Of a DNA stretch of 64,000 bases, positions 3,237 through 23,829 are shown piece after piece. The stretch comes from Candidatus Bathyarchaeota archaeon (GTDB taxonomy: Archaea > Thermoproteota > Bathyarchaeia > Bathyarchaeales > Bathycorpusculaceae). A program made the position numbers and the translations under genes. Under the pieces are notes generated by a model that was given only the letters and a program-made list of their open reading frames with translations, did not search any database and was not told the origin of the DNA. The first letter of the stretch is position 1. Every line of letters starts with the position of its first letter. The stretch is from positions 736,001-800,000 of the forward strand of contig CAWEPZ010000011.1 of assembly GCA_963811105.1 (NCBI GenBank), read 5' to 3'.

Positions 3237-3272
3237 GGGTGATATCTCCACTTTAGAGGGGGTTCAACTCCA
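3237..3272 (+). repeat. att-like dispersed repeat, copy 1
   Basis: GGGTGATATCTCCA-CTTTAGAG-GGGGTTCAACTCCA, preceded by an A-rich purine tract. Confidence 0.85.
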
Positions 3273-3338
3273 ACCTCCTACATTTTTATAAGTGAAAAGT
3301 GTGCGCTTCAAGTCAGGTGAATATAGATTAGATGGTGA

Positions 3339-3491
3339 CTGCTGAAAATCTGTCCCTGTTCAAAAACCAAGTGTGTTCGACATGGGAAATGTGAAGAATG
3401 CACACAATATCACTCAGAAAAAGGCAAACTACCCTTCTGCAAAAGAACAAAAACTTCTTTGCTTGGGTTTCTGAAGAAAACGCAAGCTTAG
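3339..3491 (+). CDS. small Cys/His-rich protein (~50 aa), absent from the ORF track; start uncertain
   Basis: KICPCSKTKCVRHGKCEECTQYHSEKGKLPFCKR. Only CTG starts are in frame; the ATG at 3332 is out of frame. Confidence 0.6.
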   Translation: MLKICPCSKTKCVRHGKCEECTQYHSEKGKLPFCKRTKTSLLGFLKKTQA

Positions 3492-3792
3492 AATTTGAAC
3501 AGATTTCTTTGATTGGATTTTTAAGAAGAATTTAAACCAAAATCTAAACGAATACCTTGTTAAACCGTCTCGTATGAATCGCACGGTAGCTTTCTTAATG
3601 CTTATGTTTAATACAACGGAGGTGTACGAAATGTCTCAAGCCAGTTAGCGCTTTGCATTAGTTTGCAGAAAGCTGACAGAAAAGAGCAAGGTGCTAACAA
3701 GATATTTTTTATTAAGGCTTAATGAAGCGCGCTGGGTGAGCCGACATCTATTTAACTCTATAACAAACAAGTAATCGAATTGGTGAAAAGAA

Positions 3793-4071
3793 GTGAGCAA
3801 GGTTGAGAACGGGTTAAAAGAAAAGATTGAGGAAATAATCAGGCAGAAGGCAGAATCATCTGTAACAGATGAGCTTTCAGACTCAGAACACGGGTATGTA
3901 GATGCTCTGATATGGCTTAAAGAAGGCTCAATCGAGCTAACTAATGAAGGCATTGGAAAAGAAATTGTGGAGCGAACCTATGCGGACAAAGACTCGAGCA
4001 AAGAATACTGCGATGGCTACGACTCTGCACTTAAACAGGTATTAAAAATGATAGTTGAATTGAAAAAATAG
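3793..4071 (+). CDS. hypothetical acidic protein
   Basis: 92-aa ORF after GGTGA; internal repeat GYVDAL / GYDSAL. Confidence 0.65.
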   Translation: MSKVENGLKEKIEEIIRQKAESSVTDELSDSEHGYVDALIWLKEGSIELTNEGIGKEIVERTYADKDSSKEYCDGYDSALKQVLKMIVELKK

Positions 4072-4230
4072 TATATTCTAAGCGAATCACATTGAAATTT
4101 ACTAACTAAATCGCATTAATGCCCTTATTTAAAAACTGGAGCGTCAAACTGTTTAAACAAAAAAAGGGAAACGCACGCTTTGGGTGTTAAACGTTTTTTT
4201 GCTTATCGATTCCAAAAAAAGAGGGTTTGA

Positions 4231-4265
4231 GGGTGATTTCTCCACCTGACTGGGGTTCAAGTCCC
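4231..4265 (+). repeat. att-like dispersed repeat, copy 2
   Basis: GGGTGATTTCTCCA-CCTGACT-GGGGTTCAAGTCCC (spacer 1 nt shorter), followed by the hairpin ATCGGA-TTCAAGT-TCCGAT (4270-4288). Confidence 0.85.
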
Positions 4266-4313
4266 AACTATCGGATTCAAGTTCCGATTACACAGAAATT
4301 TCTTTGAGCTTCC

Positions 4314-5066
4314 TCATTGACCAACAGTTTTGACTTTGCGGAAGTTAACGAGAACTAACGCTAACGCTGAAAGTCCTGCCCCTGCACCGCCGAAAACAGC
4401 CATAATAAGACTAGTGTTTTCTGTTTGATTTGGAGGAATGTAAGTAACATCTGGATTAACTGTCGGAGCAGCCCCTTCGGTAATGTTTGCATTGATGCTC
4501 ATGGCGCCCCGAGTATCGGGTTGTATGCCCCATCCGTTATTAAATGGATTGCTGAAACTCCCATAGTCATTGTTGTTGTGGATTCGAACACCAGTGCCGC
4601 TTGTTACACTGACCGTTAAGTAATCATCTGAGCAAACGGCTAATGCATATTGACGGCCAATAGTTACAGGAACAGGAGAAGGCAAGTGGAAAGTTACCCA
4701 ATTCATTGACGTTGAAACGTAAGTTTTAGTTGAGGTCCCAAGCAAAGCGCCAGGGTTTCCTGCTGAATCAGTGGCGTAGATTGCGGTCATAACGTTTCCT
4801 GGCGTATTAACCCGAGCGGCCATTGCTGTTATAGAAACCACAGTTCCAGATTCTTGAGCCGTAAAAACGGATGCAGATTTGTAATTAGCATCATTAACAT
4901 CGGTGAAATCGCCAGGTGTTGAAATGCCTAAGTGTGTATTGCCAACGCTTAAAAGGGAAACTTGCCCTAAAGAACCGCTTACACCTATCAAAAACACTAC
5001 TGCACAAACCATGTATATTACGGTGAACACCAAGTTAGTGACGTTCTTTTTATTTTTTGAATCCAA
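4314..5066 (-). CDS. secreted, C-terminally anchored beta-sandwich protein (DUF4082-like)
   Basis: N-terminal hydrophobic segment; AIYATDSAGNPGALLGTS...WVTFHLPSPVPVTIGRQYALAV; C-terminal TM with basic tail. Confidence 0.65.
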   Translation of the reverse strand: MDSKNKKNVTNLVFTVIYMVCAVVFLIGVSGSLGQVSLLSVGNTHLGISTPGDFTDVNDANYKSASVFTAQESGTVVSITAMAARVNTPGNVMTAIYATDSAGNPGALLGTSTKTYVSTSMNWVTFHLPSPVPVTIGRQYALAVCSDDYLTVSVTSGTGVRIHNNNDYGSFSNPFNNGWGIQPDTRGAMSINANITEGAAPTVNPDVTYIPPNQTENTSLIMAVFGGAGAGLSALALVLVNFRKVKTVGQ

Positions 5067-5194
5067 TATTAATACTCTTCAATTAGAAAAAAGAGGACGG
5101 TATTTAAACTTAAGCGGAAGATTCTCGTGCCCTCATGACCCGGCGAAGAAGAACAGGACGACAACAGCGAAGGTGCGACAGTTGAAAAAGCCTT

Positions 5195-5310
5195 GGGCGC
5201 CTTCAAATTAGGTAACGTATTCAAAGCCTGCTTCGACTAAGCTGCAGATTTCCTTTTCTGTCTTGGCGACTTTGACATGTATTTTGTTTCGACTTGGAAT
5301 AATGCTTCTT
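5195..5310 (-). pseudogene. tyrosine integrase C-terminal relic
   Basis: EALFQVETKY / (frameshift) KVAKTEKEICSLVEAGFEYVT*FEGA. Clearly homologous to 13902-13997; integrase identity is from recall of bathyarchaeal integrase C-termini. Confidence 0.7.
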
Positions 5311-5470
5311 TGCCTCAACGCATAATGGCAAACTTGCTGAACTTGACACGCTTTGTTAAGTTGAGTTTTCAAAAACAGCTAAAGTTGACAATTAACGTTA
5401 TTGAGTTTTTCAAAAAACTATATAATAATTCGTGCGATAAGAGGAATCAGCAAGAGACAGCGAGCGTTAT

Positions 5471-5704
5471 TTGGAGATAGAGAGAATGCAAACTGAAGAA
5501 TTAGCGTGTATAGCAAAGAAAGTAAGAAACACTTTGCCTAACGTGGAATCGTTTCCAATTGCGACAATCTATACCACAATCAAAGAGCAAGAGAAAACGA
5601 ACATGAATTTACCAGACTTTAAAGAATTAATTTATCATCTTACTGGCTGGGACATATCATTCCAAGTTATACGCAGACAACTTGAAATAAACCAGATAGT
5701 ATAG
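5471..5704 (+). CDS. hypothetical small protein
   Basis: 77-aa ORF with a TATA-like element upstream (~5419). Confidence 0.5.
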   Translation: MEIERMQTEELACIAKKVRNTLPNVESFPIATIYTTIKEQEKTNMNLPDFKELIYHLTGWDISFQVIRRQLEINQIV

Positions 5705-5810
5705 TGAGAGCCTGCGTTAGGTTGGGTGTTAGTCGATTTCCTTGTCGTCCAAAATTGTCGAAGTAATACAAAGGATTAGTTCAGATTAAAGAAAAAAGAA
5801 GAGGAATCAC

Positions 5811-5846
5811 GGGTGCTATCTCCACTCTGGAAGGAGTTCAATTCCC
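5811..5846 (+). repeat. att-like dispersed repeat, copy 3
   Basis: GGGTGCTATCTCCA-CTCTGGAA-GGAGTTCAATTCCC; outer stem GGAAT/ATTCC. Confidence 0.85.
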
Positions 5847-5899
5847 ATTCCAACTCCAATGCTTCTTAATCCCTCACCAACCGCTGTTTAGCTTCAACG

Positions 5900-6700
5900 T
5901 TATGATAAAGCTGTTTTGAAGAAATCAGCCAAGTCAACAGTCTCAATTTCCGAACCACAATGCTCACAGGTTTTTAATGATTTCAAAGATGTCTTATCGT
6001 TAATCTTTAATGTTCCATTACAGTGTGGACAACGATACACCGCAACTATTCCACCATCCTTAATCTGTTTAAGCAACTCATTAAGGTTAAAGGAAACCTC
6101 TGTTCGTTTTACTATCATCTGTTTATCTTTTTCTCTAAGCGATTTGGCTTTTTCATACATTTTCAGTTGTTTCTCGTAGATTTTAGCAGCATCCAGAGGT
6201 CTGCCACATTTTTCAAGATTAAAAGCAAGAGCAGAATACCCACGCTTAACGAAATCCCCAATATCATGCCCACATTCGGAATCAAGCAAACCATTGTCAC
6301 CCAAATCTACGAGTATAGCACGATAATCCTTTGTATCGTTTGCAATAGCCCAACTAATCAAGTTTTTTGCCTCTTGACTAATCTTACTATCTAATGCATT
6401 GAGAACTGCAGAATAAAACAGGCTTCGAAGATTCTCACCAAACTCTTCGATGTCAGTTCCAATATCCTCTAATGGATAATCCATGACTATTTGCCAAAAT
6501 CTTTCGCTGCAAAACTCAGAACAGAAACTTAGCAATAGATATTCAGCCTCTTTTTCTTCAGTTTCCATTGTGCTCTTGACTGAAAGCCAACCGATCCACT
6601 CAGGCAAACACTTTTTGCACGTAACTTTGCCACACCAATCACATTTTTCAGATGGAGTAGAGAGCAAGTAAGATGCTCCACAATTTGGACATTTACCCAT
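5900..6700 (-). CDS. multi zinc-ribbon protein
   Basis: CPNC, CDWC and CKKC near the N-terminus, CPHC...CEHC at the C-terminus; start moved to MGKCPNCG. Confidence 0.8.
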   Translation of the reverse strand: MGKCPNCGASYLLSTPSEKCDWCGKVTCKKCLPEWIGWLSVKSTMETEEKEAEYLLLSFCSEFCSERFWQIVMDYPLEDIGTDIEEFGENLRSLFYSAVLNALDSKISQEAKNLISWAIANDTKDYRAILVDLGDNGLLDSECGHDIGDFVKRGYSALAFNLEKCGRPLDAAKIYEKQLKMYEKAKSLREKDKQMIVKRTEVSFNLNELLKQIKDGGIVAVYRCPHCNGTLKINDKTSLKSLKTCEHCGSEIETVDLADFFKTALS

Positions 6701-6890
6701 TATAGCACCAGCAGGCAATAAGAAATAACATTGTAGTTCACAATTTATAAAACCTCTCGGTATGCATTTCTCCAAAAAAACTAATTCAGATATCCGATAT
6801 TTCGGAGAAGTTTATTACAGCTCAAGTAGATGCTAAAATTGCTTTAAAGAATTTTGCAGACTCTAGAAAAAGAAAGAGAGAATGTTTTTG

Positions 6891-9434
6891 CTATTGCTTC
6901 TTGCGTAATGTAATCATCAATAGAGCGCCCACAACGGCAACTGCGATTATTACAGCTATGACCCCAGCTACAATTGTCATTGTGTAATCAGGTATTTCTT
7001 GCAAAGGTGCCGTTGTTGAAGTTGCTGTTGGTGTCGATGCTACTGATATTGCGGTTGTTGCTGAAGAGCTACTGTAGGAATCATCGCCAGCGAAGGAAGC
7101 TATAATCTTGTAGTCTCCTTCAATTGGTGGAGTCCATGACTTGCTAAATGTTCCGTAGTAACCATCAGTTGTAACAGTTCCTATGTTTTCATAGTTGCCG
7201 TTTGAATCAAGTGCTGTCAGTGTTACTGGAACGCCAGTTATTGTTAGGTTGTGGTCAAGTCCGTCAATTGGGTGCTGGAAGTGCAGGTACTCCATTTGTA
7301 CTGTCATTGAGTCTCTTGAGACGCAAGGTGTGTCTGTTTGAGCGGGAGACTGATCCAATACTGTTCCCTGAATCATCGTAGCTCCTTGTGAAACGATTGC
7401 GGGATTTGCAGTTACTGTAGTAGCGCTAAGACCCTTGCCGGCTACATACAAATAACCGGTGTATACACTGTCGAAGGTAAGGTAGCCGTCTGCGATTGCT
7501 CCAGAGTTGCCTCGACTGGTTATGTTCCATATTTGTTGCCCTGTTGTTGCGTTTACAGCATACATCGTCCATCCTCTTGCGAGAGGTGATGTGGGCGAAT
7601 GTTCACCGTTTGAAATAAATAGCTTACCATCTGCAATCTGCGGGTTGGCTCCAAAGAAAGCCATCGATGGGTACCACGGTGACTCGAATGGTCTGCAAGG
7701 TGCTTCAAAATGCCAAGCTATTTTGCCTGTGTCCCAGTCAATCGCGTACAGGCCTGCGTAGGTGAAGTCATAAAGTAGACCGTAAGCAGAAGCTGTTGTA
7801 TAAGCTCCGAACACTCCCCAGGGCCAAGATGCTGCCTCACTCTTCCAAAGCTGTTTTCCTGACAATGAATCCCAGCAATACCAAAATCCGTTATCAAATC
7901 GAACAGCAAATTTTCCATGGTCAGCGCATGCAGTGCTTCCACTAAAGATTGGATAGCCAACGCCTGATGAGATGTTCCATAGCAGATTTCCTGTCGTTAA
8001 ACTTGCCGCTTGTATGTAGACGTCAGTTGAAATTCCTGTGGCATTAGGCGATATGGAAATTGTAGTAACTGAGACGCCTGCTTCAAAATCGCAAGTGCCT
8101 AAGCTGCTGAATGGAAATGTTATGTTACTTACTATTCTAGATTTTAGGTCGGTAGCAGTTCCGGCAGTTGTCCAGTTGACTAGGTAATATTTGGTGTTTG
8201 CTCCAGTACCTATCGTCTGAACGCTTAAGGCGAGTTCGTTAGAGTAGTAAGTCGCGGAAGTCAATGGGGAAGTAGACATATTTAACGCGATAGCTCCTGT
8301 GAATGGATCGATCTTTATTAGCCTACCATTGCTGATTACTATGAGCTGCGGGGGGGTTACGCCTGCTGAAGATTGTGTGGCTCCTGGAATGACAGGGGTT
8401 CTAAAGCTTGTGTCGATTCCTGTTGGTGCAGGTACATTTGTTAAGTCCCAATATATCTCGCCGGTGCGCAAGTCGTAGCATTCTAGAACGCTCGTAGCGA
8501 CGCTTTGTTCAGTACCGTTAACTGTTTGCATCATTGGTTTTGTGATTGCTTGATAAGCCCGTCCTTGGAAGATTACGCTTGGTGTTCCCGCATACCCGCC
8601 TTCTCCGCTTCCAATGATCATCGATCCGAATTGCCCTCCGATAATTCCCGCTAAAGAACCTTGCCGTTTCCAAAGAATATGTGCAGTGTTTGGTGCTTGG
8701 ACGTATGGGGTGAATTTGTAGTTGCTTGCATATGTGTTGGTGTCCGCTGGCCAGTCAGGTCCTCCTCCTTGTCCCGAGAAGGGGTAGTTTCCTCCAATGA
8801 CATACCATTCTCTGTTTTCAGGAGTTATTGGTCTTGTCCAGTAACCTGTTGGGAGTGCTGACCATGGCCATGACATTACAGGTTGTTGCTGCACTGTTAA
8901 TTCTACGTCTTCAGAAGTGGAAGGCTTGTAGTAAGCTGAGCCCAGATACGTACTACCGGCTACTGGAGTATCATATACTAATCCTTGAAGGTAGTATCCA
9001 GCTGGGAAGTAGTTTCCAGCGAAGAAGAACTTTATTTTCCATGTCCCGACTTGATCTACGATATAATTAAACCACGCTGTCGTGTCACCTTGATAAGAGT
9101 TCATTGGTCCAACTGTGTCTACGGTTCCATCTGGTTTTGTTAGTGTGACTGTGAAGCCTGATTGAGCTCTTGTTACGTGAACTGCGGGTTGAAGCCAGAT
9201 GTTGATGAGCGCTGTTTGGCCGACACCTATGGGATTAGGACTGACGCTTAGATAAGCAATTGTGTCTACTGACGCACTAGGAGTAACACCGGCTGGTAAT
9301 GGTCCGCCTGTTACAGTTTGTTTTGGGCTTCCTTCAGCAACCTGCCCCATAACAGGGTGGATTGTTGGTGCAAGAGTAGTTATCACTAGGATCAAAGCAA
9401 TTGCTAAAGTTACATATCGTTTGATTTTTTGCGT
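6891..9434 (-). CDS. PQQ-like beta-propeller surface protein, paralog 1
   Basis: Family motifs PNPIGVGQ, YWTRP, NREW, CYDLRTG, EHSP, DQSPAQ, GDDSY; C-terminal TM. The frame extends upstream to an ACG at 9434, behind GGAGA. Confidence 0.85.
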   Translation of the reverse strand, partial: TQKIKRYVTLAIALILVITTLAPTIHPVMGQVAEGSPKQTVTGGPLPAGVTPSASVDTIAYLSVSPNPIGVGQTALINIWLQPAVHVTRAQSGFTVTLTKPDGTVDTVGPMNSYQGDTTAWFNYIVDQVGTWKIKFFFAGNYFPAGYYLQGLVYDTPVAGSTYLGSAYYKPSTSEDVELTVQQQPVMSWPWSALPTGYWTRPITPENREWYVIGGNYPFSGQGGGPDWPADTNTYASNYKFTPYVQAPNTAHILWKRQGSLAGIIGGQFGSMIIGSGEGGYAGTPSVIFQGRAYQAITKPMMQTVNGTEQSVATSVLECYDLRTGEIYWDLTNVPAPTGIDTSFRTPVIPGATQSSAGVTPPQLIVISNGRLIKIDPFTGAIALNMSTSPLTSATYYSNELALSVQTIGTGANTKYYLVNWTTAGTATDLKSRIVSNITFPFSSLGTCDFEAGVSVTTISISPNATGISTDVYIQAASLTTGNLLWNISSGVGYPIFSGSTACADHGKFAVRFDNGFWYCWDSLSGKQLWKSEAASWPWGVFGAYTTASAYGLLYDFTYAGLYAIDWDTGKIAWHFEAPCRPFESPWYPSMAFFGANPQIADGKLFISNGEHSPTSPLARGWTMYAVNATTGQQIWNITSRGNSGAIADGYLTFDSVYTGYLYVAGKGLSATTVTANPAIVSQGATMIQGTVLDQSPAQTDTPCVSRDSMTVQMEYLHFQHPIDGLDHNLTITGVPVTLTALDSNGNYENIGTVTTDGYYGTFSKSWTPPIEGDYKIIASFAGDDSYSSSSATTAISVASTPTATSTTAPLQEIPDYTMTIVAGVIAVIIAVAVVGALLMITLRKKQ

Positions 9435-9701
9435 TTTGGTATTTCTCCTTTTTGTTGTGAAAATCTTACCGAAGAAAGCACTTCGCTTTTTACGATAAGC
9501 ATTTTGCTAAACAAGCCTATAACATCTATCAACTTATAAGACTAAGTGGAAAGTGACCGCTGACGACAAAGCGGTTAGTGATGGAGGTTTAAATTGGAAT
9601 TATTCGATAAACTAAGAGAATGCCGAGGCTTGCGTCAACAAACCTTGAATGTGCATTAGCTCCAAACCATTTTCAACATTTTAGAAACACCCTGAGCTTG
9701 A

Positions 9702-10409
9702 TCATGTGATTTTAAAGTAAACACGTTTGTTGTTTTTCCCTTTATTTTCAGCTCTTACCAATTCTATTTTACCCACTTCTTGAAGACTGCGCACATGAGT
9801 ACCTCCATCAGCTTGCCTATCCACACCGACTATTTCCACAACGCGAAGTAACGGAATATCAGGTGGCAAAGCTTCCGCCATCTTAATTATACCCGGGATT
9901 TTCATCGCTTCCACTTTCGGCAACTCGTACCATTTTACAGGAATATCCTTGCTGAGGAGCTCATTCGCCTTAGTGACATATTGGTCTAAGATTTGCTTGT
10001 CGAAGTTTTCAAAGTTAAAATCAAAACGGATACAGTCTTCATCAAGCTGATTGCCAGTGACAAGAGCACCAGTTCCGACGCATAAAAGTGAGGCAAACAA
10101 ATGAGCAGCTGTATGACTCCGCATAAGTTTGTACCTTCGTTCCCAGTCTAGGACGCAGCGAACTCTGTCCCCATTTTTAAGACCTGCTCGATCTACCTCG
10201 TGAGAAATCTCTCCCGAAAACTTTCCCACAAAAACCACATCATAACTTTCATTATCCTTAACAATTTTGCCAGTATCCCAAGGTTGACCTCCTCCTTTGG
10301 GGTAAAAAATGGTTTGATCAAGGACTACGTATTTTTGGTCCTTAACAGAAACTACAACGGCGTCGCACTCTTTGAGATAACTGTCGTTTAAAAACAACAT
10401 TTTTGTCAA
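9702..10409 (-). CDS. alaXM: alanyl-tRNA editing protein AlaX-M
   Basis: TIFYPKGGGQPWD, HTAAH, RFDF, DGGTH; start likely MTKMLF. Confidence 0.9.
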   Translation of the reverse strand: MTKMLFLNDSYLKECDAVVVSVKDQKYVVLDQTIFYPKGGGQPWDTGKIVKDNESYDVVFVGKFSGEISHEVDRAGLKNGDRVRCVLDWERRYKLMRSHTAAHLFASLLCVGTGALVTGNQLDEDCIRFDFNFENFDKQILDQYVTKANELLSKDIPVKWYELPKVEAMKIPGIIKMAEALPPDIPLLRVVEIVGVDRQADGGTHVRSLQEVGKIELVRAENKGKNNKRVYFKIT

Positions 10410-12704: not shown

Positions 12705-12753
12705 ATTCCTTCCGTATGGATGAAATGGAAGTGTTGCCAGGAAATTCATTCAC

Positions 12754-16564: not shown

Positions 16565-16904
16565 TCTGATATTACGGGATGAAATAGGCAGGTAAGCACG
16601 CTGCTTTGTCCATCTATTGAGTCATACAATTTTTCAGGAGACATCCAAAATACTTTACCGTCCATTATATTCATGAGAGAGCAAGGGGTATGACAATTCT
16701 AACACGTTAAACACTAGCTTTTGGAAGTTATTCGCGATTCTTGTCTTGAATACTATTTTGGTTTCAGTGAACTAAATGACCGACAAAAGATTTGGCATTG
16801 TCGGGACTACAAATATAAAATAGATAATGATAGACAAACGAACGAAAAGAAAGAACTGGAAAGTAGCATAAACAATTAATAGCAATTTCACGCTTTCACG
16901 AATT

Positions 16905-17324
16905 ATGAAAGTCGCAGTTTTTTACCTCTCAAGAACTGGAAACACAAAGCGTTTTGCAGAAGCAATAGCTGAATCACTAAAAACTCCGCTTTTTGATATA
17001 ACACTAATTGATCCTGAATCACAAGCAGACTATGATTTGCTAATCATCGGCACGCCAGTAAATGGTTTTAGAGCATGCCCCGAAGTGTCATCATTCGTTC
17101 AAAAACTGCCAGAAGGAGTAAATAAAAAAGCGATTCTTTTTTGCACCTACGCAATAGCAAAAGGAAACACCCTCAAAAACCTTGAACAAGAGCTTTCAAA
17201 AAAAGGATACATGACTCTTTTAGCAGTGTCTAAGAGAGGAGTAAAACCGAACAAAAACGACTTCGAGGATGCCTTAAGCGAAGTAGCCACCTGCATTAAA
17301 CAGGTCCAGCAAACTCAACAATAA
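16905..17324 (+). CDS. flavodoxin family protein
   Basis: YLSRTGNT, IIGTPV. Confidence 0.9.
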   Translation: MKVAVFYLSRTGNTKRFAEAIAESLKTPLFDITLIDPESQADYDLLIIGTPVNGFRACPEVSSFVQKLPEGVNKKAILFCTYAIAKGNTLKNLEQELSKKGYMTLLAVSKRGVKPNKNDFEDALSEVATCIKQVQQTQQ

Positions 17325-17881
17325 TTTAATATTTACGACATCGCAAGCAAATACCTGTCAAAGCAATCAATACGAACAAAGAAAACTCGACAATTACTTG
17401 TGGATGACTAATTTGAATTTGCAGGGTTTGCAGGTTCTACAAAGTGTAAATAAGGAACCCTAAAGGAACAAGACTAAGCAACATGAATGTTGTGCCAATG
17501 GTTCGCTTAGTTTCTGGTTTCATTTCAATCCATTAAGAGCACAGATAATTGTTGACTTGTGGCTTTCAGTTTTGCCCAGTTGCCGGGTGTTTCTGTTTCA
17601 CGATGTCTGAGATTCTTAATTCTGGATGATGGCATCGGTTCTTTCGAAAGGTTATTTTTCCCGCTTGTACAGCTTCTTTTGGACACCATTGAAGACAAGC
17701 AAAGCAAAGTTTGGTTGAGTTCTTGCCATGATTGCTGCGCATATAAGAATTTTTAAGTGTCAAAGAAAAAGGCAAAGCCAAAAACATTTCTAGAATATTA
17801 CACAATTCTTTTTTCATTTCAATATGTAGTCTAAAGAGTATAACTATAATAGTTTGCAGGACAGTTTTCGAAAGGATAACA

Positions 17882-18982
17882 ATGACCAAAACTTCCCAAC
17901 CAGACGAGCAATTAAATCTCAACATTAACAAAATAGTTAACGATGCCTTAGGCGTCTTCTTCAAAGATGCTGTAAAGATTGCCCTGACAAGCCCATCTCA
18001 GTCGGTTTTCTTTTTGCGCACGCTTGGTTGGCAAAACAAAGCAGCTAAAATGAGGCGGAAGCTAGAAAGTACAGGGCTTCATGTTCCACCAGTCCTTGTG
18101 ATTAGTGTCACGAGCAAGTGCAACTTGCATTGTGAAGGATGCTACCATCAAGCGTTGAGGGCAAAAACTGACGCTGAAATGAGCGATGAGCGGCTTGAGC
18201 GACTGGTGGATGAGGCGAAGGAATTGGGCATTTCATTTATTGTGCTGGCAGGAGGTGAGCCACTAATGCGACCGAACATTCTTGACATCTCTCAGAGAAC
18301 TCCTGAAATAATGTTTTTAATGTTTACAAACGGTTTGTTGTTAAGTGACGAGGTTCTCAAGCGGATTTCAGATAATAAGAACATTGTTCCTTTGTTGAGT
18401 TTGGAAGGTTATCAGGTTGATACTGATGGCAGGCGTGGGACAGGGGTATATAATCAGCTCCTAAAGTCGATGAGTAAACTGAAGAATAGAGGTTTGTTCT
18501 GGGGAGCATCGCTGACCATGACAAGAACTAACTTTAATGAAGTCACCGATGATGCATTCATTAAACAACTCGTTGACAATGGATGCAAGCTTTTCATGTT
18601 AGTCGAATACACTCCTGTGATCGCAGGAACGGAAGATTGGGTTCTTAGTGAAGAGCAAAAATCAAAAGTTATTGCCATCCGTAATAACTTCCGAAAGAAA
18701 TACCCTGCCATGTTTATTGCTTTGCCGTGGGATGAAGATGAAATCGGCGGATGCCTTTCAGCAGGTCGCGGTTTCATACACATCAGTGCGGAGGGAAATG
18801 TTGAACCGTGCCCCTTCATCGCTTATTCTGATACCAATCTAAAAAATCTCTCACTCAGAGAAGCATTACAATCCAAAATGCTAAAAATTATTCGAGAAAA
18901 TCATGCAGAACTCAAAGAAATTCAGGGTTGTGCTCTTTGGGAAAAACGCGAATGGGTAAAATCTCTCTCGAAGACAGCCTAA
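17882..18982 (+). CDS. radical SAM/SPASM-twitch protein
   Basis: CNLHCEGC, GGEP, FTNG, GCLSAGR...VEPCPF. Confidence 0.9.
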   Translation: MTKTSQPDEQLNLNINKIVNDALGVFFKDAVKIALTSPSQSVFFLRTLGWQNKAAKMRRKLESTGLHVPPVLVISVTSKCNLHCEGCYHQALRAKTDAEMSDERLERLVDEAKELGISFIVLAGGEPLMRPNILDISQRTPEIMFLMFTNGLLLSDEVLKRISDNKNIVPLLSLEGYQVDTDGRRGTGVYNQLLKSMSKLKNRGLFWGASLTMTRTNFNEVTDDAFIKQLVDNGCKLFMLVEYTPVIAGTEDWVLSEEQKSKVIAIRNNFRKKYPAMFIALPWDEDEIGGCLSAGRGFIHISAEGNVEPCPFIAYSDTNLKNLSLREALQSKMLKIIRENHAELKEIQGCALWEKREWVKSLSKTA

Positions 18983-19059
18983 TGAAGATGAGAAAAAAGC
19001 AGAGCTTTCTCGTCAATAGAACAACTGGTAGGTTCGGCTTCTAAACAAAAGGCCCGCCC

Positions 19060-19180
19060 AAATCCTCAGTCTCGGCATAGCGATCGCTGGATTTGATCGC
19101 CGAACATCGGAAAGCGAATGCCGTTTCTCCAGACCCTCTTACTTTTACATTGGAGGAAGAGGGCTGCGGCTGATGCCGAT
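19060..19180 (-). pseudogene. zinc-ribbon relic, probable N-terminus of an integrase or mobile-element protein
   Basis: QCKSKRVWRNGIRFPMFGDQIQRSLCRD*GF, a decayed CxxC...QRxLCxxC ribbon in a GC-richer patch. Confidence 0.5.
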
Positions 19181-19802
19181 GGAGCCTTCTGTGGGCTCTG
19201 ACTTACAAAAATGAGGACTGGAATCAGTGCCATATGTGGAGCTAGGAGACTTTGTCTATGACGGAAACCTGAGGATCCATTGACATCATATTAAATTCCT
19301 GCTGATACTCCACCTACAACTAAAACTACCACAACAATTACGGCGAACAAAGTTCCTTTTACAATCCATATTTTTCGACATTAATTTTCCTCAAAATCTC
19401 ATTAACATAACTTTGATTAAAAACAATCAGACGGAAATACACCCATCTGAAAATCAACCTCGAAATATTTTTAGAACGATTTGTTCCATAATTGGACTTA
19501 TTGAGTTAAGAATAGATAACATAGATAGGAAGTAACTGAAAAAACACTGCAAAGCCCAATTAGTCCCAACCACATTTTTACTGTATTCATTTCTTCCGGC
19601 TCCATACAATTTAACACTTAATTCTTCAGGAAATATAAGGCATGTTTCAGCTCTGGAATATACCAAGAATTGAAAGCAACGGTAAGCAATATTACAACTG
19701 AAAGAATATACGCCTTAAGGCTCGGTCGGACGCTTGACAAAGCCTTTTTGGATTACAAAAATAATTATAAGACAAAACCATACTTGAAGGTCCATTTATC
19801 GT

Positions 19803-22112
19803 TTAGCACTTTTTTGGGGGAGGTAACCGTATTTTGAAAGTTGTTCCTTTGCCTTCTTGACTTTCAAAGGTTACTGTGCCGCCTAACGCTTCAGTCATGC
19901 GCTTAATAACGGCTAAGCCAAACCCTTGACCTTTAGCTTTAGTCGTAAACATTGGAGTAAACAATTTGCTTCTCACCTTTTCAGGTATGCCCACGCCTGT
20001 GTCCTTAACGGCTAATATGAAATCGTTTGTTTCTTTAAAGGCATGAATCGTTAGTTTGCCACCCTGTGGCATCGCTTGAACAGCATTAGTAATTAGATTA
20101 TACATAATTCGATTTATGAAAGAAGAATCAGCCGCAACTTTAATAGCGTCATTTTCCACTTTAACGCTTACTTTGACGTTATCAGGCAATCCGTTTTTTG
20201 AAAGTAAATTATTAATTATTAGTTTTACGTCGGTTTCCTCCGCATGAGGTTTAAGAGGTCGGGCAAAATCTTGAAGATCTGCAACAATCTTGTTGATGTA
20301 CTCAGCGTTCTTTTCAATCTCTTGCAGGCTGACTAAAGCGTTCTTTTTCTCTTCGTTGTCCGGAATCGACGCCAATTCTGTTTTGGCTAGGTACACATCA
20401 CTAGTAATAGCTTGCAAAGGATTGCGAATATCATGACCTACCATGCCTGCTGTGGCACCGATAGCTGCTAGCCTCTCAGAATCTTTTAGTTTCTTTGCTG
20501 CTTCCTGAGCTTGTTCTTCAGCCTTCTTAAGTTCGGTAATATCTCTTGCCGCTGCGAAAACGCCTTGCATCTCGCCTGCTTCATTTGTGTAAATGGTGGC
20601 ATTGTATAATACATCGGTTATTTTTCCAGATTTATGTCTAATCGCCAATGGATAATCTCGCACAAACCCTTCAGTGAAAACTTGTTTATACCCCTTTTCG
20701 GCTTTTTCTGGTTCAGTAAAGTAATCTGAGAAATCGCTACCGATCAATTCTTCTTTAGAACAGCCAGTGGCAAGTTCTGTGGCTTGATTGACATCAGTAA
20801 TTTTACCCTCAACACTGATTGTTACAAGAGGATCTAAACTTGCTTCTAAAAGGCTACGTGAATAAAAAGAGACATCGCGCACTTGTTTCTCAGCATGCTT
20901 CCGTTCAGTAATATCGATGCCCATCTCGAGAATGAGCTTTGATCCATCCGCTTCAACGAATGGAAAGTCGTAAATATCATAATCGCGTCCATCTGGGCCA
21001 GTCCATTCCCAGCGATGCGGACCATTGATTTTCAGGACCTTGTAAGTCTCACATTTCTCACAGGGTGATTTACGACTAAACAGAAAGTCGTAACATCTCC
21101 TTCCGTGAGATTCTCCGAAACGCTCACGGAAAACCTTGTTGGCAAATGGCACACAGTAATCATTGTCAAGAAGAATTACGTAGGCCGGAAGGGTTTCAAG
21201 GACATTATAGAGACGTTGGCGTTCAATTGAAACTTCCTCCGTTCGCTTGCGTACCCTCTCCTCTAATTCCTCATTAAGTCTACTCAAGGATGCTTCAGCT
21301 TTCCTGCGTTCACTTATGTCGGTAAGAATTACACCTACTTGATTTTCAGCTACTTTCCAAACATAGACATCGTAGAACTTTTGAAGCCCTGCGCCATAAC
21401 TCTCAAAATGAGAAGCTTTCCCAGTTTTGGCTACGATATCAAACTTTTCGGGAAATTCATCATTAATGTTTCCAAACAGTTCTTTTCTGCTCTTGCCCAT
21501 TAATTGTTCTTTAGTTTTTCCTATTAACCTCTCTGTAGCAGGGTTAACTTCGCGATAAATTGCATCAATTGGTTTGCCGTTTTCATCGTGAATTAGCTCC
21601 ATAATAAAATAACTGAAATCCACAGCTGCAAACATGCCAGTTATAGAACTAAAAAGCTGACGGTATCGTCGCTCGCTATTCCTTAATGTGTCTTCAGCTT
21701 TTTTGCGCTCGGTAATATTCTCGAATAAAGCAACAAAATGACATTTTTCTGGACAATAAGCGACAACCTTGAACCACTTACCTAAAGGCTCTGCCTGGTT
21801 CTCAAACTGAATCGGCTCCCCCGTTAAAGCAACTTTGCCATAAATGCCTATCCAATCAGCAGGGTCTTTCTCGATGCCTGGTAGAATCTCGGTTACTCTT
21901 TTGCCTATTATTCGCTCCCGTTTGAGTCCCGTCATTTTTTCAAAAGCATGATTAACCTCGAGAAAAACGTAGTCAACAGGCTTGCCCGCTTTGTCAATAA
22001 TAATTTTGTGATAAGCAAAACCGTCCAGCATCCTATCAAAAAACATGTCAAACTGTTTCCTGTCAGTGCCCATTGCTTTTCCCCAAGCTTTTGCTAAGAC
22101 GTCGCCAGACAA
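19803..22112 (-). CDS. cytoplasmic multi-PAS histidine kinase
   Basis: Four PAS/PAC units (one with a CY...PCxxC motif), HDIRNPL, DTGVG, GQGFGL. Confidence 0.92.
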   Translation of the reverse strand: MSGDVLAKAWGKAMGTDRKQFDMFFDRMLDGFAYHKIIIDKAGKPVDYVFLEVNHAFEKMTGLKRERIIGKRVTEILPGIEKDPADWIGIYGKVALTGEPIQFENQAEPLGKWFKVVAYCPEKCHFVALFENITERKKAEDTLRNSERRYRQLFSSITGMFAAVDFSYFIMELIHDENGKPIDAIYREVNPATERLIGKTKEQLMGKSRKELFGNINDEFPEKFDIVAKTGKASHFESYGAGLQKFYDVYVWKVAENQVGVILTDISERRKAEASLSRLNEELEERVRKRTEEVSIERQRLYNVLETLPAYVILLDNDYCVPFANKVFRERFGESHGRRCYDFLFSRKSPCEKCETYKVLKINGPHRWEWTGPDGRDYDIYDFPFVEADGSKLILEMGIDITERKHAEKQVRDVSFYSRSLLEASLDPLVTISVEGKITDVNQATELATGCSKEELIGSDFSDYFTEPEKAEKGYKQVFTEGFVRDYPLAIRHKSGKITDVLYNATIYTNEAGEMQGVFAAARDITELKKAEEQAQEAAKKLKDSERLAAIGATAGMVGHDIRNPLQAITSDVYLAKTELASIPDNEEKKNALVSLQEIEKNAEYINKIVADLQDFARPLKPHAEETDVKLIINNLLSKNGLPDNVKVSVKVENDAIKVAADSSFINRIMYNLITNAVQAMPQGGKLTIHAFKETNDFILAVKDTGVGIPEKVRSKLFTPMFTTKAKGQGFGLAVIKRMTEALGGTVTFESQEGKGTTFKIRLPPPKKC

Positions 22113-23137
22113 TTCTTAATCACTTGATAAGGTTTTAAAATGACTTAGTCCAAGTTGTATAAATAGCTTCATCATCTAGTTTAAGATAGTGAAATTGAGT
22201 TTATTGCGAGTTGGTTTCTTCTGGAGCACTTCGCAAGACAATCAAATAATACAGATTTCCTGCACTCCACCCCAACCGCCCTGTCCACGCTACTATATCG
22301 CTGAATCGAAGCATCCACATCACCCCAAATGCGCCGATTCCCCAAAGTAACAGTTCAAAGCAGTACCAATACAGAAGTACTTGATTTAGACTGCAAATAG
22401 AGCCTCATAAAAAGAAAACTACCGACAAGAAAAACAATTATTACAACTGTATAAATCGTTTGGCTTATCAAAGTACTACCCTGAGCATCTATGAAAAGCG
22501 ACGGAGCCCTAGAGCTAAGATTTCGTCACGTTTCCAAACGATGAACTTAAGAAAATAACGGGCAGCTACTCTATTTATAATTCATATTTTCGATTCATAA
22601 GCCTTATTTCTGTTGAATGACCGGAGACTATTGAAGCGATTTGAGCATCAATGAAAAGATCTTAGGTTCTCTTGCCGTTATGTTTCTGAGTTTAGGTTGT
22701 GTACCCGCTTATTTCGATTTTATGTTTTATGCAACAGTACTATGGATAGCCGGTTTTGCCATAATGAACGCGCATGTTTTTCGTTTTATCGCACAAAAAG
22801 TTCTATATTAGCTTATTCAATCAGAGGCTTTTCATGAATCGGGCCCACTATAGTTAAGTCAAATCAAAATATCTTATTTTTATTTTATACGTTCTATGAT
22901 AAACTATTTCCTGGTAAGATTTTCTGTATGTGGAGTAATTTTTTGGAAGGCCTTGAAGAAGTCAAGTGAGATGGTTAGAGTTTGCGGAAGTGTATGAAGA
23001 TGGCGAACCATCCAGCATTCCCTCTGAACTTACCCATCAAGCAAAACATTTACTTTTCTTAAACCTTACCCATCCAAGATACATAAGAAACCGCGAAATT
23101 CCCAATTGCCCTGAAACAGCGTAACGTTGCATGTGCA

Positions 23138-23602
23138 TCAGAACTTTTTAAGTGCATACTCAGGTTTCGGCTTTTCCAATTCTCGGCTTAGAAAATCAGG
23201 ATGCGCCAAATATCCGAGCCATATTTTGTAAACGCAAGACAGGCAATATCGCTTTCCTAAATTTACGCCCTGATCGATCAATCGCTGATAAAAATTGCCA
23301 AATTTGCCGTCGGAAGAAAATAGACGCCCAAACAATTCACGTTCAGAGCCAGAGTCTTCCTCTATGTACGGTGTAAGCTGTTCGCATTTTGCGCATATAA
23401 AGTCCATGTTGGGCAATTCGTCGCAAACTGTTAAGCAGTGAACACAAACGCCCTTAACTGTGTAGCTTGAATCGATGATTTGTTTTTGTTCAAGAACCAA
23501 GACTTCAAATTCCATATCATAGCGCAGCTTGCTGATTTCGCACCAGGGACAGTTTATGTATGCGACATATGTATCAACGATTCTACCGCTTGCCATTTGC
23601 AT
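23138..23602 (-). CDS. Cys-rich (4x CxxC) hypothetical zinc-finger protein
   Basis: CPWC, CVHC, CAKC, CLSC. Confidence 0.7.
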   Translation of the reverse strand: MQMASGRIVDTYVAYINCPWCEISKLRYDMEFEVLVLEQKQIIDSSYTVKGVCVHCLTVCDELPNMDFICAKCEQLTPYIEEDSGSERELFGRLFSSDGKFGNFYQRLIDQGVNLGKRYCLSCVYKIWLGYLAHPDFLSRELEKPKPEYALKKF

Positions 23603-23793
23603 GCTCTGTTTTTTTGTTTTGATTTGCTTTTATGATTATCGGAATGAAGGTCATTTCACAAATTTGATACCATAGGAGGAGTCAAATCTAGATGGCTCCA
23701 ATCATGAAACTAAGTTGACCTTTGTTGAAAAACTGTGATTCGGAAGACGTAGGCAATATTATGTGAAAAAAAGGTGCCAAAAATGAAATTTGT

Positions 23794-23829
23794 GTTTGAT
23801 GTCTCCACTTTGATTAGAGCCAAATTCAT
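23794..23829 (+). repeat. possible highly degenerate att-like repeat, copy 7
   Basis: GTTTGATGTCTCCA-CTTTGATT-AGAGCCAAATTCAT; outer stem AAATGAA/TTCATTT; A-rich tract upstream. Confidence 0.4.

What the first reader, a model, noticed from the sequence alone, without database searches (positions are those of the whole stretch)
3237..23829. Array of 36-nt tRNA-T-arm-like dyad sites plus integrase relics: candidate non-integron gene-cassette accretion system
Seen: six intergenic copies in the same orientation (3237, 4231, 5811, 10700, 13379, 13803; a weak seventh at 23794) of GGGT-N5-(C/G)TCCA-N7/8-NNNG-TTCAA-N-TC. Arms and length are conserved, the 7-8 nt centre is completely variable, the arms are partly self-complementary (GGG/CCC, TCC/GGG, differing outer stems such as GGAAT/ATTCC), and each copy is preceded by an A-rich purine tract (oligo-T terminator on the minus strand). 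No copy was found after 24 kb. Copy 6 lies ~60 nt beyond the stop of a convergent integrase-like C-terminus. Established: tyrosine recombinase core sites are inverted arms around a 6-8 bp spacer, and tRNA-targeting elements leave tRNA 3' fragments at their ends. Inference: these are att junctions of serially accreted mini-elements carrying unrelated cargo (small Cys-rich protein, surface protein, Zn-ribbon protein, radical SAM plus peptide, kinases). They lack the AAC/GTT boxes of integron attC sites, and no intact tRNA or integrase is in the window. Alternative: a structured 3'-terminal RNA or REP-like element.
Basis: partly seen in the sequence, partly recalled or inferred. Interest (0 to 1): 0.88.

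Follow-up and report, generated by a model that had tools for sequence, protein, structure and literature searches.

The report
Integration scars downstream of a tRNA gene
The repeated 36-base sites are junction scars left where small mobile DNA elements inserted one after another next to an alanine tRNA gene of a soil archaeon, building a roughly 26-kb patchwork island of accessory genes; this is a known way for genomes to grow, seen here in a little-studied lineage.

Summary
The stated pattern has 6 exact matches in the window against 0 expected, and the weak seventh copy is a real left-half match.

The full unit is about 70 nt: an A-tract, TGC, a near-palindrome GGGTGAYATCTCCA, about 9 variable nt, and a tRNA T-loop with a 3'-acceptor-like tail. 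In relatives the tails are exact 3' ends of tRNA-Leu, Ala, Cys or Pro. They sit downstream of the matching intact tRNA, in one case with an intact tyrosine integrase between.

The window's array starts at tRNA-Ala(TGC), 2.06 kb left of the window. It ends at the seventh copy, after which conserved chromosome resumes in one relative (G016). It contains integrase C-terminal relics. Left and right flanks of copies assort independently: 46 of 48 homologous-flank pairs share one side only. No RNA structure or Rfam family is supported.

Best reading (0.78): these are attR-type junctions, a conserved element arm plus a tRNA 3' copy, from serial integration and decay of integrative elements. This matches accretion of cis-mobilizable elements (CIMEs) and the tycheposon island model.

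The site type occurs in 50 of 141 genomes sampled across the class and co-occurs with the integrase family. It is a new member of a known kind, of moderate interest.

The parts
3217..3283 (+). Junction copy 1 (core 3237-3272): A-tract, near-palindrome GGGTGATATCTCCAC, 9-nt spacer, T-loop-like GGTTCAACTCC, decayed tRNA-Leu-like tail.
   Evidence: E 3.1e-16. A twin at C11:974547 has the tail CCCACCTCCTGCA.
4213..4273 (+). Junction copy 2.
   Evidence: E 1.6e-13.
5792..5854 (+). Junction copy 3. Its tail is closest to tRNA-Cys, 11 of 17 positions after the loop, i.e. decayed.
   Evidence: (E 3.7e-14).
10682..10747 (+). Junction copy 4.
   Evidence: E 1.6e-14.
13368..13422 (+). Junction copy 5, the most decayed full copy.
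   Evidence: E 1.8e-6.
13784..13845 (+). Junction copy 6, with a perfect 5-bp T-arm. Its tail plus 140 nt of flank resemble tRNA-Ala(TGC) and its downstream flank.
   Evidence: E 1.4e-14. Window 13815-13983 matches C11:733911-734083 at 74.7% over 178 nt.
13905..14036 (-). Integrase C-terminal relic (44 codons, ...EAGFEYVCDFGQNKIFRKRK*), convergent with copy 6. It marks the start of an older element.
   Evidence: Homologous relics lie beside tRNA-Ala(TGC), tRNA-Pro(GGG) and tRNA-Leu(TAG) in the same genome.
5205..5252 (-). Weaker integrase C-terminal relic (EICSLVEAGFEYVT*). No recognisable tRNA tail lies to its left.
   Evidence: tblastn E 0.063. blastn: window 5199-5310 matches C11:1099505-1099393, next to tRNA-Leu(TAG), at 87.6%. 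Sequence read.
23778..23815 (+). Seventh copy: A-tract and palindrome only, with the T-loop decayed. Probable oldest, distal junction of the island.
   Evidence: E 7.6e-4. The next gene, 23930-24259 (-), is homologous to sequence lying about 690 nt beyond the last junction of the tRNA-Ala(TGC) island in G016.
4155..4174 (+). A-tract remnant without a palindrome. It is the right end of the module duplicated at C11:974546-975471.
   Evidence: E 0.77, not significant alone. The duplication ends at 4173, and in the twin locus the same A-tract runs straight into a full copy.
5083..5100 (+). A second A-tract-only remnant (AGAAAAAAGAGGACGG) to the left of the weak integrase relic.
   Evidence: Read directly. 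By eye only, not scored.
1..3216 (-). Proximal part of the island: a helicase (AAA_11/AAA_12, 9-1490, running off the window), a DDE_5 transposase (1631-2821) and an 86-aa ORF.
   Evidence: Left of the window lie a PLD-like nuclease, the helicase C-terminus, an integrase relic and tRNA-Ala(TGC).
3284..13783 (.). Cargo modules between junctions: a 102-aa ORF; a 250-aa ORF; a Zn-ribbon protein; a PQQ-like beta-propeller/Ig surface protein; an AlaX-like protein; a B12-binding radical SAM enzyme; a 130-aa ORF.
   Evidence: In 30 relatives the pieces occur scattered, on different contigs and in a different order.
14037..23777 (.). Distal, older part of the island: a CHASE4-PAS histidine kinase, a flavodoxin, a radical SAM/SPASM enzyme, a PAS histidine kinase and a 154-aa ORF.
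   Evidence: In relatives the homologues lie on other contigs or at other loci.

Best explanation
The sites are attR-type junctions of a family of tRNA-targeting integrative elements in a Bathyarchaeota-lineage archaeon.

Anatomy. Each junction has two parts:
- A conserved element-borne arm: an A-tract (oligo-T on the other strand), TGC, the near-palindrome GGGTGAYATCTCCA, and about 9 variable nt.
- The copy of a tRNA 3' end, from the T-stem/T-loop to the acceptor end, that the element carries in its attP.

Mechanism. A tyrosine integrase recombines attP with the T-loop-to-3'-end segment of a tRNA gene. This integrase has an N-terminal Zn-ribbon, a PF00589 catalytic domain and a C-terminal ...GFEYV..KLFRKRK tail. 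Its gene sits convergent with the tRNA, with its stop about 30-60 nt from the tRNA 3' end. The tRNA is regenerated at the proximal end. The arm plus the displaced tRNA 3' end form the distal junction.

Accretion. Later elements insert again at the tRNA, or at resident T-loop remnants, and push older ones outward. Older elements lose their integrase, keeping at most a C-terminal relic, and their tails decay.

In this genome the process built an island of about 26 kb, from tRNA-Ala(TGC), 2.06 kb left of the window, to the seventh half-copy at 23.8 kb.

Shown: the anatomy, the tRNA identity of the tails, the linkage to the integrase, the independent assortment of flanks, and the variable content of the orthologous locus.

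Inferred: the exact crossover point; the role of the palindrome (an arm-type protein-binding site) and of the oligo-T (an archaeal terminator for leftward transcription); and whether the integrase-less modules still move.
For: (1) Tails are tRNA 3' ends.
- In the own genome, C13:218470 carries the last 23 nt of tRNA-Ala(CGC), C9:419557 those of tRNA-Cys, and C11:1096898 those of tRNA-Leu(TAG).
- In 60 fetched regions of relatives, 133 matches at E<0.01 include many tails ending in CCCACCCCCTGCACCA, CCCCCCCAGTCCA, CCCATCCCCAGCTC or CCCAGCGGCCTCACCA.

(2) Classical attL...attR pairs.
- In G041 the order is tRNA-Leu(CAG), an intact PF00589 integrase, about 5 kb of cargo, a junction, a second module, a junction.
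- The identity block between the tRNA and the junction is 23 nt, running from the T-stem to the 3' end, in the G041 (Leu) and G038 (Cys) pairs, which are two of the 8 tRNA-junction sets printed.
- In the own genome, tRNA-Leu(TAG), tRNA-Cys, tRNA-Pro(GGG) and tRNA-Val(CAC) each have same-strand junctions 0.2-4 kb downstream.

(3) Integrase linkage.
- Of 30 loci with homologues of the integrase, 14 have a convergent tRNA next to the integrase stop.
- C-terminal relics lie beside junction tails or tRNAs in the window and elsewhere.
- Across 141 genomes of the class, 31 have both junction and integrase, 19 junction only, 17 integrase only and 74 neither: odds ratio 7.1, Fisher p 3e-7. Related genomes are not independent.

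(4) Junction behaviour.
- Among 143 copies, 22 pairs have homologous left flanks and 26 have homologous right flanks. Only 2 pairs share both, and one of those is a trivial overlap.

(5) Hotspot and island boundaries.
- The adenosine-kinase/tRNA-Ala(TGC) locus is found in 54 of 61 genomes.
- Within about 1.3-1.5 kb downstream of the tRNA, 7 of 27 loci have an integrase-like match and 5 of 27 have a junction.
- In G003 the sequence after the last junction is collinear with window 29.7-40 kb. In G016 the sequence after the last junction matches window 23938-24275.

(6) Clustering: 28 of 41 copies lie in 9 clusters, each on a single strand.
Against: - In the window itself the tails are decayed. 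At best 11 of 17 positions after the loop match any tRNA, ungapped. The tRNA origin of copies 2, 4 and 5 therefore rests on family membership, not on direct identity.
- Tails within one array derive from different tRNAs: copy 1 is Leu-like, copy 3 Cys-like, copy 6 Ala-like. Simple repeated integration at a single tRNA does not predict this.
- Only 11 of 41 own-genome copies have a same-strand tRNA within 20 kb upstream. Random placement gives a mean of 4.5 and a maximum of 13 in 1000 trials. Arrays at C11:974-978 kb and C2:424-429 kb have neither a tRNA nor an integrase nearby.
- Homology breakpoints are not at one position. They range from the 5' edge of the palindrome to the end of the tRNA tail. 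The copy-1 module has three different left contexts joined exactly at 3236/3237.
- Within the genus, junction counts and integrase counts do not correlate (Spearman 0.19, p 0.24, 41 genomes).
- No excision product or circular form was seen.
Confidence: 0.78

Rival explanations
1. An active, integron-like cassette exchange. The integrase-less 0.4-5 kb modules, bounded by the composite site, are themselves the mobile units. Integrases encoded elsewhere excise and insert them in trans at any resident T-loop-containing site, including sites far from tRNA genes. The site then acts like an attC derived from a tRNA.
For: - The modules are small, with 1-2 genes. Away from tRNAs they carry cargo of the kind recalled as typical of chromosomal integron cassettes: nitroreductase, glyoxalase, DUF3795, SnoaL, flavodoxin, hemerythrin, DUF1801. 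The integron comparison is from memory.
- The copy-1 module is 94.7% identical to a second copy at C11:974546-975471. It recurs in G001, G002 (3 copies), G009, G012 and G016.
- Three left contexts join at exactly 3236/3237.
- Tails within arrays are heterogeneous, and G038 carries a chimeric fragment with a tRNA-Cys body and a tRNA-Leu tail.
- 30 of 41 copies are not near a same-strand tRNA.
- The own genome holds intact integrases of the family.
Against: - No array has an adjacent integrase with a dedicated primary site.
- Cargo genes point both ways relative to the site.
- Many sites, including all those in the window, are decayed rather than maintained.
- A conserved box downstream of the tail is present in only 37 of 143 copies, against 12-17 of 143 in control windows.
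- Breakpoints scatter, as expected if homologous exchange within the conserved block contributes.
- No circular cassette was seen.
Confidence: 0.12
2. A REP-like or terminator element, or a structured 3'-terminal or tRNA-like RNA. The unit is transcribed and works as RNA, or as a hairpin plus oligo-T terminator on the minus strand. Its link to recombination is incidental.
For: - The oligo-T run follows the palindrome on the minus strand in most copies.
- In at least 8 of 43 own-genome copies an opposite-strand ORF ends 19-66 nt from the tail.
- Eight left-half-only copies (A-tract plus GGGAGA..TC[T/G]CC, no T-loop) exist in the own genome.
Against: - No Rfam family reaches its threshold in the window.
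- RNAalifold predicts no consensus pairs on 26 copies.
- For the two candidate hairpins 65.4% of cells pair, against a shuffle mean of 64.2%; 121 of 500 shuffles reach that figure.
- Gene orientation around the copies is mixed.
- The tails equal the 3' ends of specific tRNAs, and the flanks assort independently. A terminator or REP model does not explain either.
Confidence: 0.06
3. 3' halves of split tRNA genes, whose conserved left part is a leader that pairs with a 5'-half transcript.
For: - Some tails in relatives carry a complete T-arm, acceptor strand and CCA.
- Split tRNAs are known in some archaea (recalled, not checked here).
Against: - tRNA identity starts only at the T-stem. The anticodon-stem and variable-loop positions are not tRNA-like.
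- Intact genes exist for the same tRNAs.
- The only genome-wide matches to the left block are further copies of the same motif; no complementary partner was sought as such.
Confidence: 0.01

Closest known systems
Tandem accretion of integrative elements with decay to CIMEs (cis-mobilizable elements), as described for streptococcal ICE/IME islands (passages read in PMC5704250)
   Same: - Site-specific integration into the 3' end of a target gene.
- Decay of the resident element to an integrase-less unit that keeps its att sites.
- Integration of further elements at the regenerated site, giving arrays separated by partial target-gene copies.
   Different: - The host here is an archaeon and no conjugation genes were seen.
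- The units are very small (0.4-5 kb) and numerous.
- Tails from different tRNAs are mixed within one array.
- Cis-mobilization was not tested.
Tycheposon-driven genomic islands of Prochlorococcus (passages read in bioRxiv 10.1101/2020.12.28.424599)
   Same: - Islands are anchored at tRNA genes.
- New elements enter at the tRNA-proximal end.
- Fragmented integrases and extra partial tRNAs are scattered through the island.
- Cargo is of environmental or accessory type.
   Different: - The host domain is different.
- No replication module was identified in the units examined here.
- Excision and tandem junctions were shown experimentally there, not here.
Archaeal tRNA-targeting tyrosine integrases of the non-partitioning kind, with tandem integrations (passages read in the review PMC8371274, and in PMC6563490)
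   Same: - A PF00589 tyrosine recombinase.
- attB in the 3' part of tRNA genes.
- Tandem integration at one locus is reported in archaea.
   Different: - The integrase stop lies about 30-60 nt outside the att core, so the gene is not split on integration.
- The conserved palindromic arm at fixed spacing from the T-loop was not mentioned in the passages I read.
- In the review passage I read, Bathyarchaea are mentioned only in connection with TopoIB.
Integrons (attC cassette arrays)
   Same: - Same-orientation arrays of short recombination sites.
- The sites separate small, unrelated, mostly single-gene modules that are shuffled between genomes.
   Different: - No integrase or primary site lies adjacent to the array.
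- The sites are tRNA 3' copies plus an element arm, not attC hairpins.
- ORFs are in both orientations.
- The best NCBIfam hits of the integrase are XerA-like and far below cut-off. The integron-integrase models score 39.9-54.2 bits against a 265-bit cut-off.

Membership tests
tRNA-targeting integrative element (attL/attR pair made by a tyrosine integrase) | A partial copy of the tRNA 3' end, in the same orientation, downstream of the intact tRNA. | tested here: met
   - Relatives: G041 Leu(CAG), G038 and G003 Cys, and G016, G042, G033 and G013 Leu(TAG).
- Own genome: Leu(TAG), Cys, Pro(GGG) and Val(CAC).
- Window: six to seven same-strand copies lie 5.3-26 kb downstream of tRNA-Ala(TGC). Copy 6 plus its flank is 74.7% identical to the tRNA and its flank. 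The window tails are decayed.
tRNA-targeting integrative element (attL/attR pair made by a tyrosine integrase) | A tyrosine integrase gene inside the element, next to one att site. | tested here: met
   - Intact integrases lie convergent with a tRNA in 14 of 30 loci.
- The G041 exemplar has PF00589 at E 8e-20.
- In the window and its left flank only relics remain: 13905-14036, 5205-5252, and C11:734005-734094.
tRNA-targeting integrative element (attL/attR pair made by a tyrosine integrase) | Presence/absence or content polymorphism at the orthologous locus. | tested here: met
   - The locus is conserved in 54 of 61 genomes.
- Downstream content differs: 7 of 27 loci have an integrase-like match and 5 of 27 a junction within about 1.5 kb.
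- The island is about 9.5 kb in G003, against about 26 kb here.
tRNA-targeting integrative element (attL/attR pair made by a tyrosine integrase) | Excision or circular intermediate, and recombination activity. | not testable with these tools
   Only assembled contigs of public runs could be laid. No raw reads and no biochemistry were available.
CIME / accretion arrays | Units that lack integration genes but are flanked by att sites, in tandem with other elements. | tested here: met
   Units between a tRNA and a junction, or between two junctions, carry only cargo:
- UbiA, fasciclin/DUF1508, N6-methylase, ketopantoate reductase, transglutaminase.
- AAA_15/AAA_21 ATPase.
- The window modules.
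Integron | An intI-type integrase with an adjacent primary site and promoter at the head of the array. | tested here: not met
   - No PF00589 match lies in the window or near the arrays at C11:974-978 kb and C2:424-429 kb.
- The family integrase scores far below the integron-integrase cut-offs.
Integron | attC sites: imperfect inverted repeats that fold as hairpins, with cassette ORFs in one orientation. | tested here: not met
   - No conserved pairing.
- ORFs lie on both strands relative to the site.
- The AAC/GTT boxes of attC are recalled, not scanned for.
Structured RNA, REP or terminator element | A conserved secondary structure with covariation, or a match to a curated RNA family. | tested here: not met
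   - Rfam: 0 matches in the window.
- RNAalifold: 0 pairs.
- Pair counts are not above shuffles.
Structured RNA, REP or terminator element | Transcript 3' ends at the oligo-T run. | not testable with these tools
   No usable strand-specific RNA reads were available.

The most novel reading that the evidence does not exclude
Across a large part of the class Bathyarchaeia, integrase-less mini-modules are themselves the units of gene exchange. They are bounded by a tRNA-mimicking composite site: a conserved palindrome at fixed spacing from a T-loop, plus an acceptor tail. Integrases acting in trans insert them at any resident T-loop site. This would be an archaeal, tRNA-derived functional analogue of integron cassettes. 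It would explain arrays far from tRNA genes, mixed tails, and exact breakpoints at the palindrome edge.
Probability: 0.18. Interest if true: 0.8.

Novelty: new member of a known kind. Interest (0 to 1): 0.42.

Why it matters
The finding gives a concrete, searchable signature for flexible genomic islands and integrative elements in Bathyarchaeia, an abundant uncultured soil and sediment lineage. The signature is the roughly 70-nt arm-plus-tRNA-tail junction together with an integrase family bearing a characteristic C-terminal tail.

My four literature searches found no description of integrated non-viral elements in this lineage.

The signature explains how accessory genes accumulate next to tRNA genes there. 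These include surface proteins, radical SAM enzymes, sensor kinases, and defence-like nuclease/helicase and ATPase genes. It also lets island boundaries be drawn in metagenome-assembled genomes.

If the integrase-less modules prove to be mobile in trans, the system would be a natural cassette platform in archaea.

Tried and rejected
RNA reading.
- Rfam at gathering threshold found nothing in the window.
- RNAalifold gave an empty consensus on 26 copies.
- Explicit counting for the palindrome hairpin and the T-arm was no better than shuffles.

tRNA genes in the window: none.

Methanogen identity: no MCR alpha subunit in the genome.

Expression: no RNA holder was listed among 20 public runs. The four runs laid were contigs only. 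They yielded one weak joint (3557 to 13787, one contig, depth 3.35, side 30), which I do not rely on.

Free or viral forms.
- The 17-mer palindrome block gave 10 IMG/VR contigs, all apparently chance matches lacking an A-tract or T-loop.
- The composite pattern gave one IMG/VR contig with a full junction about 100 nt from its end. No integrase of this family was found in that record.

Synteny of the left flank of the C11:974 kb array: the adh_short and AhpC genes occur separately in relatives (14 of 61 genomes matched), so no stable flank could be defined.

A repeated element to the left of C11:974539: none found.

The paralogue of the Zn-ribbon gene on C3 has no junction beside it.

A conserved box downstream of the tail (TWTAWR) is only modestly enriched: 37 of 143 copies, against 12-17 of 143 in control windows.

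Within the genus, junction number does not track integrase number (rho 0.19).

A first palindrome regex was mistyped, with one spacer position too many. It was corrected.

Supplementary files of papers were not opened. They may list att sites or elements that bear on novelty.


Full report
OBSERVATION. None is expected by chance. All six are preceded by an A/G-rich tract. The window holds no tRNA gene and no Rfam family at gathering threshold.

THE FULL UNIT AND ITS SPREAD.
- The window is C11:736001-800000 of a 3.49-Mb, 15-contig, 41% G+C genome.
- The genome has 37-43 predicted tRNA genes, many of whose predictions end in CCA, and no tmRNA.
- The nearest named public record is a Candidatus Bathyarchaeota MAG.
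- Runs that hold parts of the stretch are soil, peat and wetland metagenomes.
- The strict pattern occurs 12 times genome-wide.
- An HMM built from these copies, and then from 26 copies, finds 43 matches at E<0.01. Of these, 41 include the left block.
- The extended consensus is AAAAAAAnAGGAAnTGC-GGGTGAnATCTCCA-(about 9 nt)-GGGTTCAAATCCC-tail.
- 28 of the 41 copies lie in nine clusters, each on a single strand.
- A sequence-only covariance model, R1, finds the unit in 38 of 41 genomes of the genus, with up to 40 matches per genome.
- At E<=1e-5, R1 finds it in 50 of 141 genomes sampled across the class, in 29 of 76 genera.
The only later candidate is a marginal half-copy at 53523-53555 (-).

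WHAT THE RIGHT HALF IS. The T-loop-like part and what follows it are copies of tRNA 3' ends.
- In the own genome, three copies carry the last roughly 23 nt of tRNA-Ala(CGC), tRNA-Cys and tRNA-Leu(TAG).
- In 60 regions fetched from relatives, 133 matches at E<0.01 include many with perfect tails of tRNA-Leu, Ala, Cys or Pro, often with CCA.
- Where an intact tRNA lies upstream on the same strand, the junction shares with it an identity block from the T-stem to the 3' end. In G041 (Leu-CAG) this block is GTTCAAATCCCACCCCCTGCACC. In G038 (Cys) it is GGGTTCAATTCCCATCCCCAGCT.
- The window's own tails are decayed: at best 11 of 17 positions after the loop match any resident tRNA.
- Copy 6 together with 140 nt of flank is 74.7% identical to tRNA-Ala(TGC) and its downstream flank.

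THE INTEGRASE.
- About 55 nt beyond copy 6, on the other strand, a 44-codon relic ends in ...EAGFEYVCDFGQNKIFRKRK*.
- The same tail ends a full-length 425-aa protein at C14:6224-7498. That protein has an N-terminal Zn-ribbon and a PF00589 domain. Its best solved relatives are XerH and XerA, and its NCBIfam hits are XerA-like but far below cut-off.
- Similar relics lie directly after tRNA-Ala(TGC), tRNA-Pro(GGG) and tRNA-Leu(TAG) in this genome. They also lie beside junction tails in relatives. Nearly all are 20-170-codon stumps.
- A weaker relic lies at window 5205-5252.
- Homologues at E<=1e-20 occur in 52 of 61 genomes of the genus.
- Of the 30 best loci: 14 have a tRNA convergent with the integrase stop; 4 have a co-directional tRNA-His; 3 have only a T-loop-like match; 9 have nothing within the 1.5-kb flank. 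None has an arm-bearing junction next to an intact integrase.
- One complete example is in G041. The order is tRNA-Leu(CAG); the integrase; HTH, TPR and other cargo; a junction; a second module with an AAA_15/AAA_21 ATPase; a second junction.
- Across the class sample, junction and integrase co-occur: 31 genomes have both, 19 junction only, 17 integrase only, 74 neither. The odds ratio is 7.1. Related genomes are not independent.

JUNCTION BEHAVIOUR.
- For 143 copies with 400-nt flanks, 22 pairs have homologous left flanks and 26 have homologous right flanks. Only two pairs share both, and one of those is an overlap artefact. Pairs are not independent, because some modules recur four times.
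- Breakpoints of homology fall at several places: the 5' edge of the palindrome; just 3' of the palindrome; in the T-loop; and at the end of the tRNA tail.
- The copy-1 module (window 3236-4173) is duplicated at 94.7% identity at C11:974546-975471, with the boundary at the first G of GGGT. A contig of a peat metagenome run shows a third left context joined at the same base (loose end at 3236).
- I cannot place the crossover more precisely. Exchange by homology within the conserved block may add to integrase-mediated events.

THE ISLAND.
- Housekeeping genes lie to the left of tRNA-Ala(TGC): a NUBPL/ParA-type ATPase and an adenosine-specific kinase.
- To the right of the tRNA come, in order: an integrase relic; a PLD-like nuclease and a helicase; an IS transposase; the modules separated by copies 1-6; a second relic after copy 6; two sensor kinases, a flavodoxin and a radical SAM/SPASM enzyme; and the half-copy at 23.8 kb.
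- The kinase/tRNA-Ala(TGC) pair is found in 54 of 61 genomes. What follows it differs. Within 1.3-1.5 kb, 7 of 27 loci have an integrase-like match, from full length to relic, and 5 of 27 have a junction.
- In the complete genome G003, junctions lie 0.85, 8.7 and 9.4 kb after the tRNA. The next sequence is collinear with window 29.7-40 kb.
- In G016, junctions lie 3.6 and 8.6 kb after the tRNA. About 690 nt beyond the last one comes the homologue of window 23938-24275, the gene immediately right of the seventh copy.
- The island therefore runs from the tRNA to about 23.83 kb in the window, roughly 26 kb. This explains why no further full copy follows.
- Relatives hold pieces of window 1-20000 only as scattered matches of at most 2.3 kb, on different contigs and in a different order.

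WHAT DOES NOT FIT SIMPLE ACCRETION.
- Only 11 of 41 copies in this genome have a same-strand tRNA within 20 kb upstream. Random placement gives a mean of 4.5 and a maximum of 13.
- Arrays at C11:974-978 kb and C2:424-429 kb carry small accessory genes (nitroreductase, glyoxalase, DUF3795, SnoaL, flavodoxin, hemerythrin, radical SAM, DUF1801). They have no tRNA or integrase nearby.
- Tails within an array can come from different tRNAs. One fragment in G038 joins a tRNA-Cys body to a tRNA-Leu tail within the T-loop.
- These points suggest that any resident T-loop remnant can serve as a secondary target, and that modules are reshuffled after integration. They keep the cassette-exchange reading alive, though at lower probability.

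RNA ALTERNATIVE.
- RNAalifold finds no consensus pair on 26 copies.
- The two plausible hairpins pair in 65.4% of cells, against 64.2% in shuffles.
- Gene orientation around the copies is mixed.
- The oligo-T run on the minus strand is a plausible archaeal terminator for transcripts coming from the integrase or from convergent cargo genes. This is inference only.
- Eight left-half-only copies, all with the perfectly symmetric GGGAGA..TC(T/G)CC variant, remain unexplained.

COMPARISON WITH WHAT IS KNOWN.
- tRNA 3' ends and T-loops as integration targets, and tandem integration, are described for archaeal tyrosine recombinases (passages of PMC8371274; passages of PMC6563490).
- Decay to integrase-less units flanked by att sites, followed by accretion, is the CIME model (passages of PMC5704250).
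- tRNA-proximal island growth, with fragmented integrases and scattered partial tRNAs, is the tycheposon model (passages of the bioRxiv preprint 10.1101/2020.12.28.424599).
- A paper on Bathyarchaeia viruses mentions integrases but gives no att sites in the passages I read (PMC10848311).
- My four searches returned no description of this junction motif or of non-viral integrated elements in Bathyarchaeia. Supplements were not available.

VERDICT. The mechanism is of a known kind. New are the lineage, the integrase subfamily, and the class-wide conserved palindromic arm at fixed spacing from the T-loop. Interest is moderate.

Noticed in passing
window 6867-9571 and 25573-26000: Segments of the PQQ-like beta-propeller/Ig surface-protein genes match dozens of other loci in the genome at 64-88% identity. 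This is a very large paralogous family of surface proteins.
   Followed up: no
L028 about 1930-2009 (-) (G038:C32): A chimeric fragment. A tRNA-Cys body, from the D/anticodon region through the T-loop, is joined to a tRNA-Leu acceptor tail and the flank typical of Leu-type elements. This implies recombination between non-cognate T-loop sites.
   Followed up: partly
own genome: C1:47410(-), C2:386978(-), C10:10952(+), C11:649794(+), C11:977939(+), C13:192108(-), C13:193479(-), C13:232617(-): A left-half-only subfamily: A-tract, TGC and the perfectly symmetric GGGAGA..TC(T/G)CC, with no T-loop. The C10 copy lies about 70 nt upstream of tRNA-Arg(TCG). These may be arms of elements with another target, or truncated junctions.
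   Followed up: partly
L046 about 4555-4625 (+) (G013:C4): A different kind of partial tRNA-Leu(TAG) repeat. It starts at the anticodon loop and has no palindromic arm, in the same array as arm-bearing junctions. A second integrase type probably uses the same tRNA.
   Followed up: no
L110, L117, L122, L123 (integrase loci in relatives): Integrases of the same family lie co-directional with, and upstream of, tRNA-His(GTG) instead of convergent with it. This suggests a different sublocation or arrangement for that target.
   Followed up: no
G000:C14:5990-6200 (L091): The only intact integrase with the closest C-terminal tail has no tRNA after its stop. Instead there is a run of degenerate TAGTTAG/TAACTAA short repeats.
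   Followed up: no
L180 2870-2950 (IMG/VR contig, 24.5 kb, linear): A predicted viral contig ends about 100 nt after a full junction with a tRNA-Leu-like tail. No integrase of this family was found in the record. Larger virus-like elements may use the same att type.
   Followed up: partly
window 53523-53555 (-): A marginal left-half match to the junction model (E 0.014), far outside the island.
   Followed up: no
window 4231-4290 and C11:975473-975560: Some copies have a second T-loop-like sequence (GGATTCAAGTTCC, or GGACGTTCAATCCC) 10-25 nt after the first. This forms a sub-family with tandem T-loop remnants.
   Followed up: no
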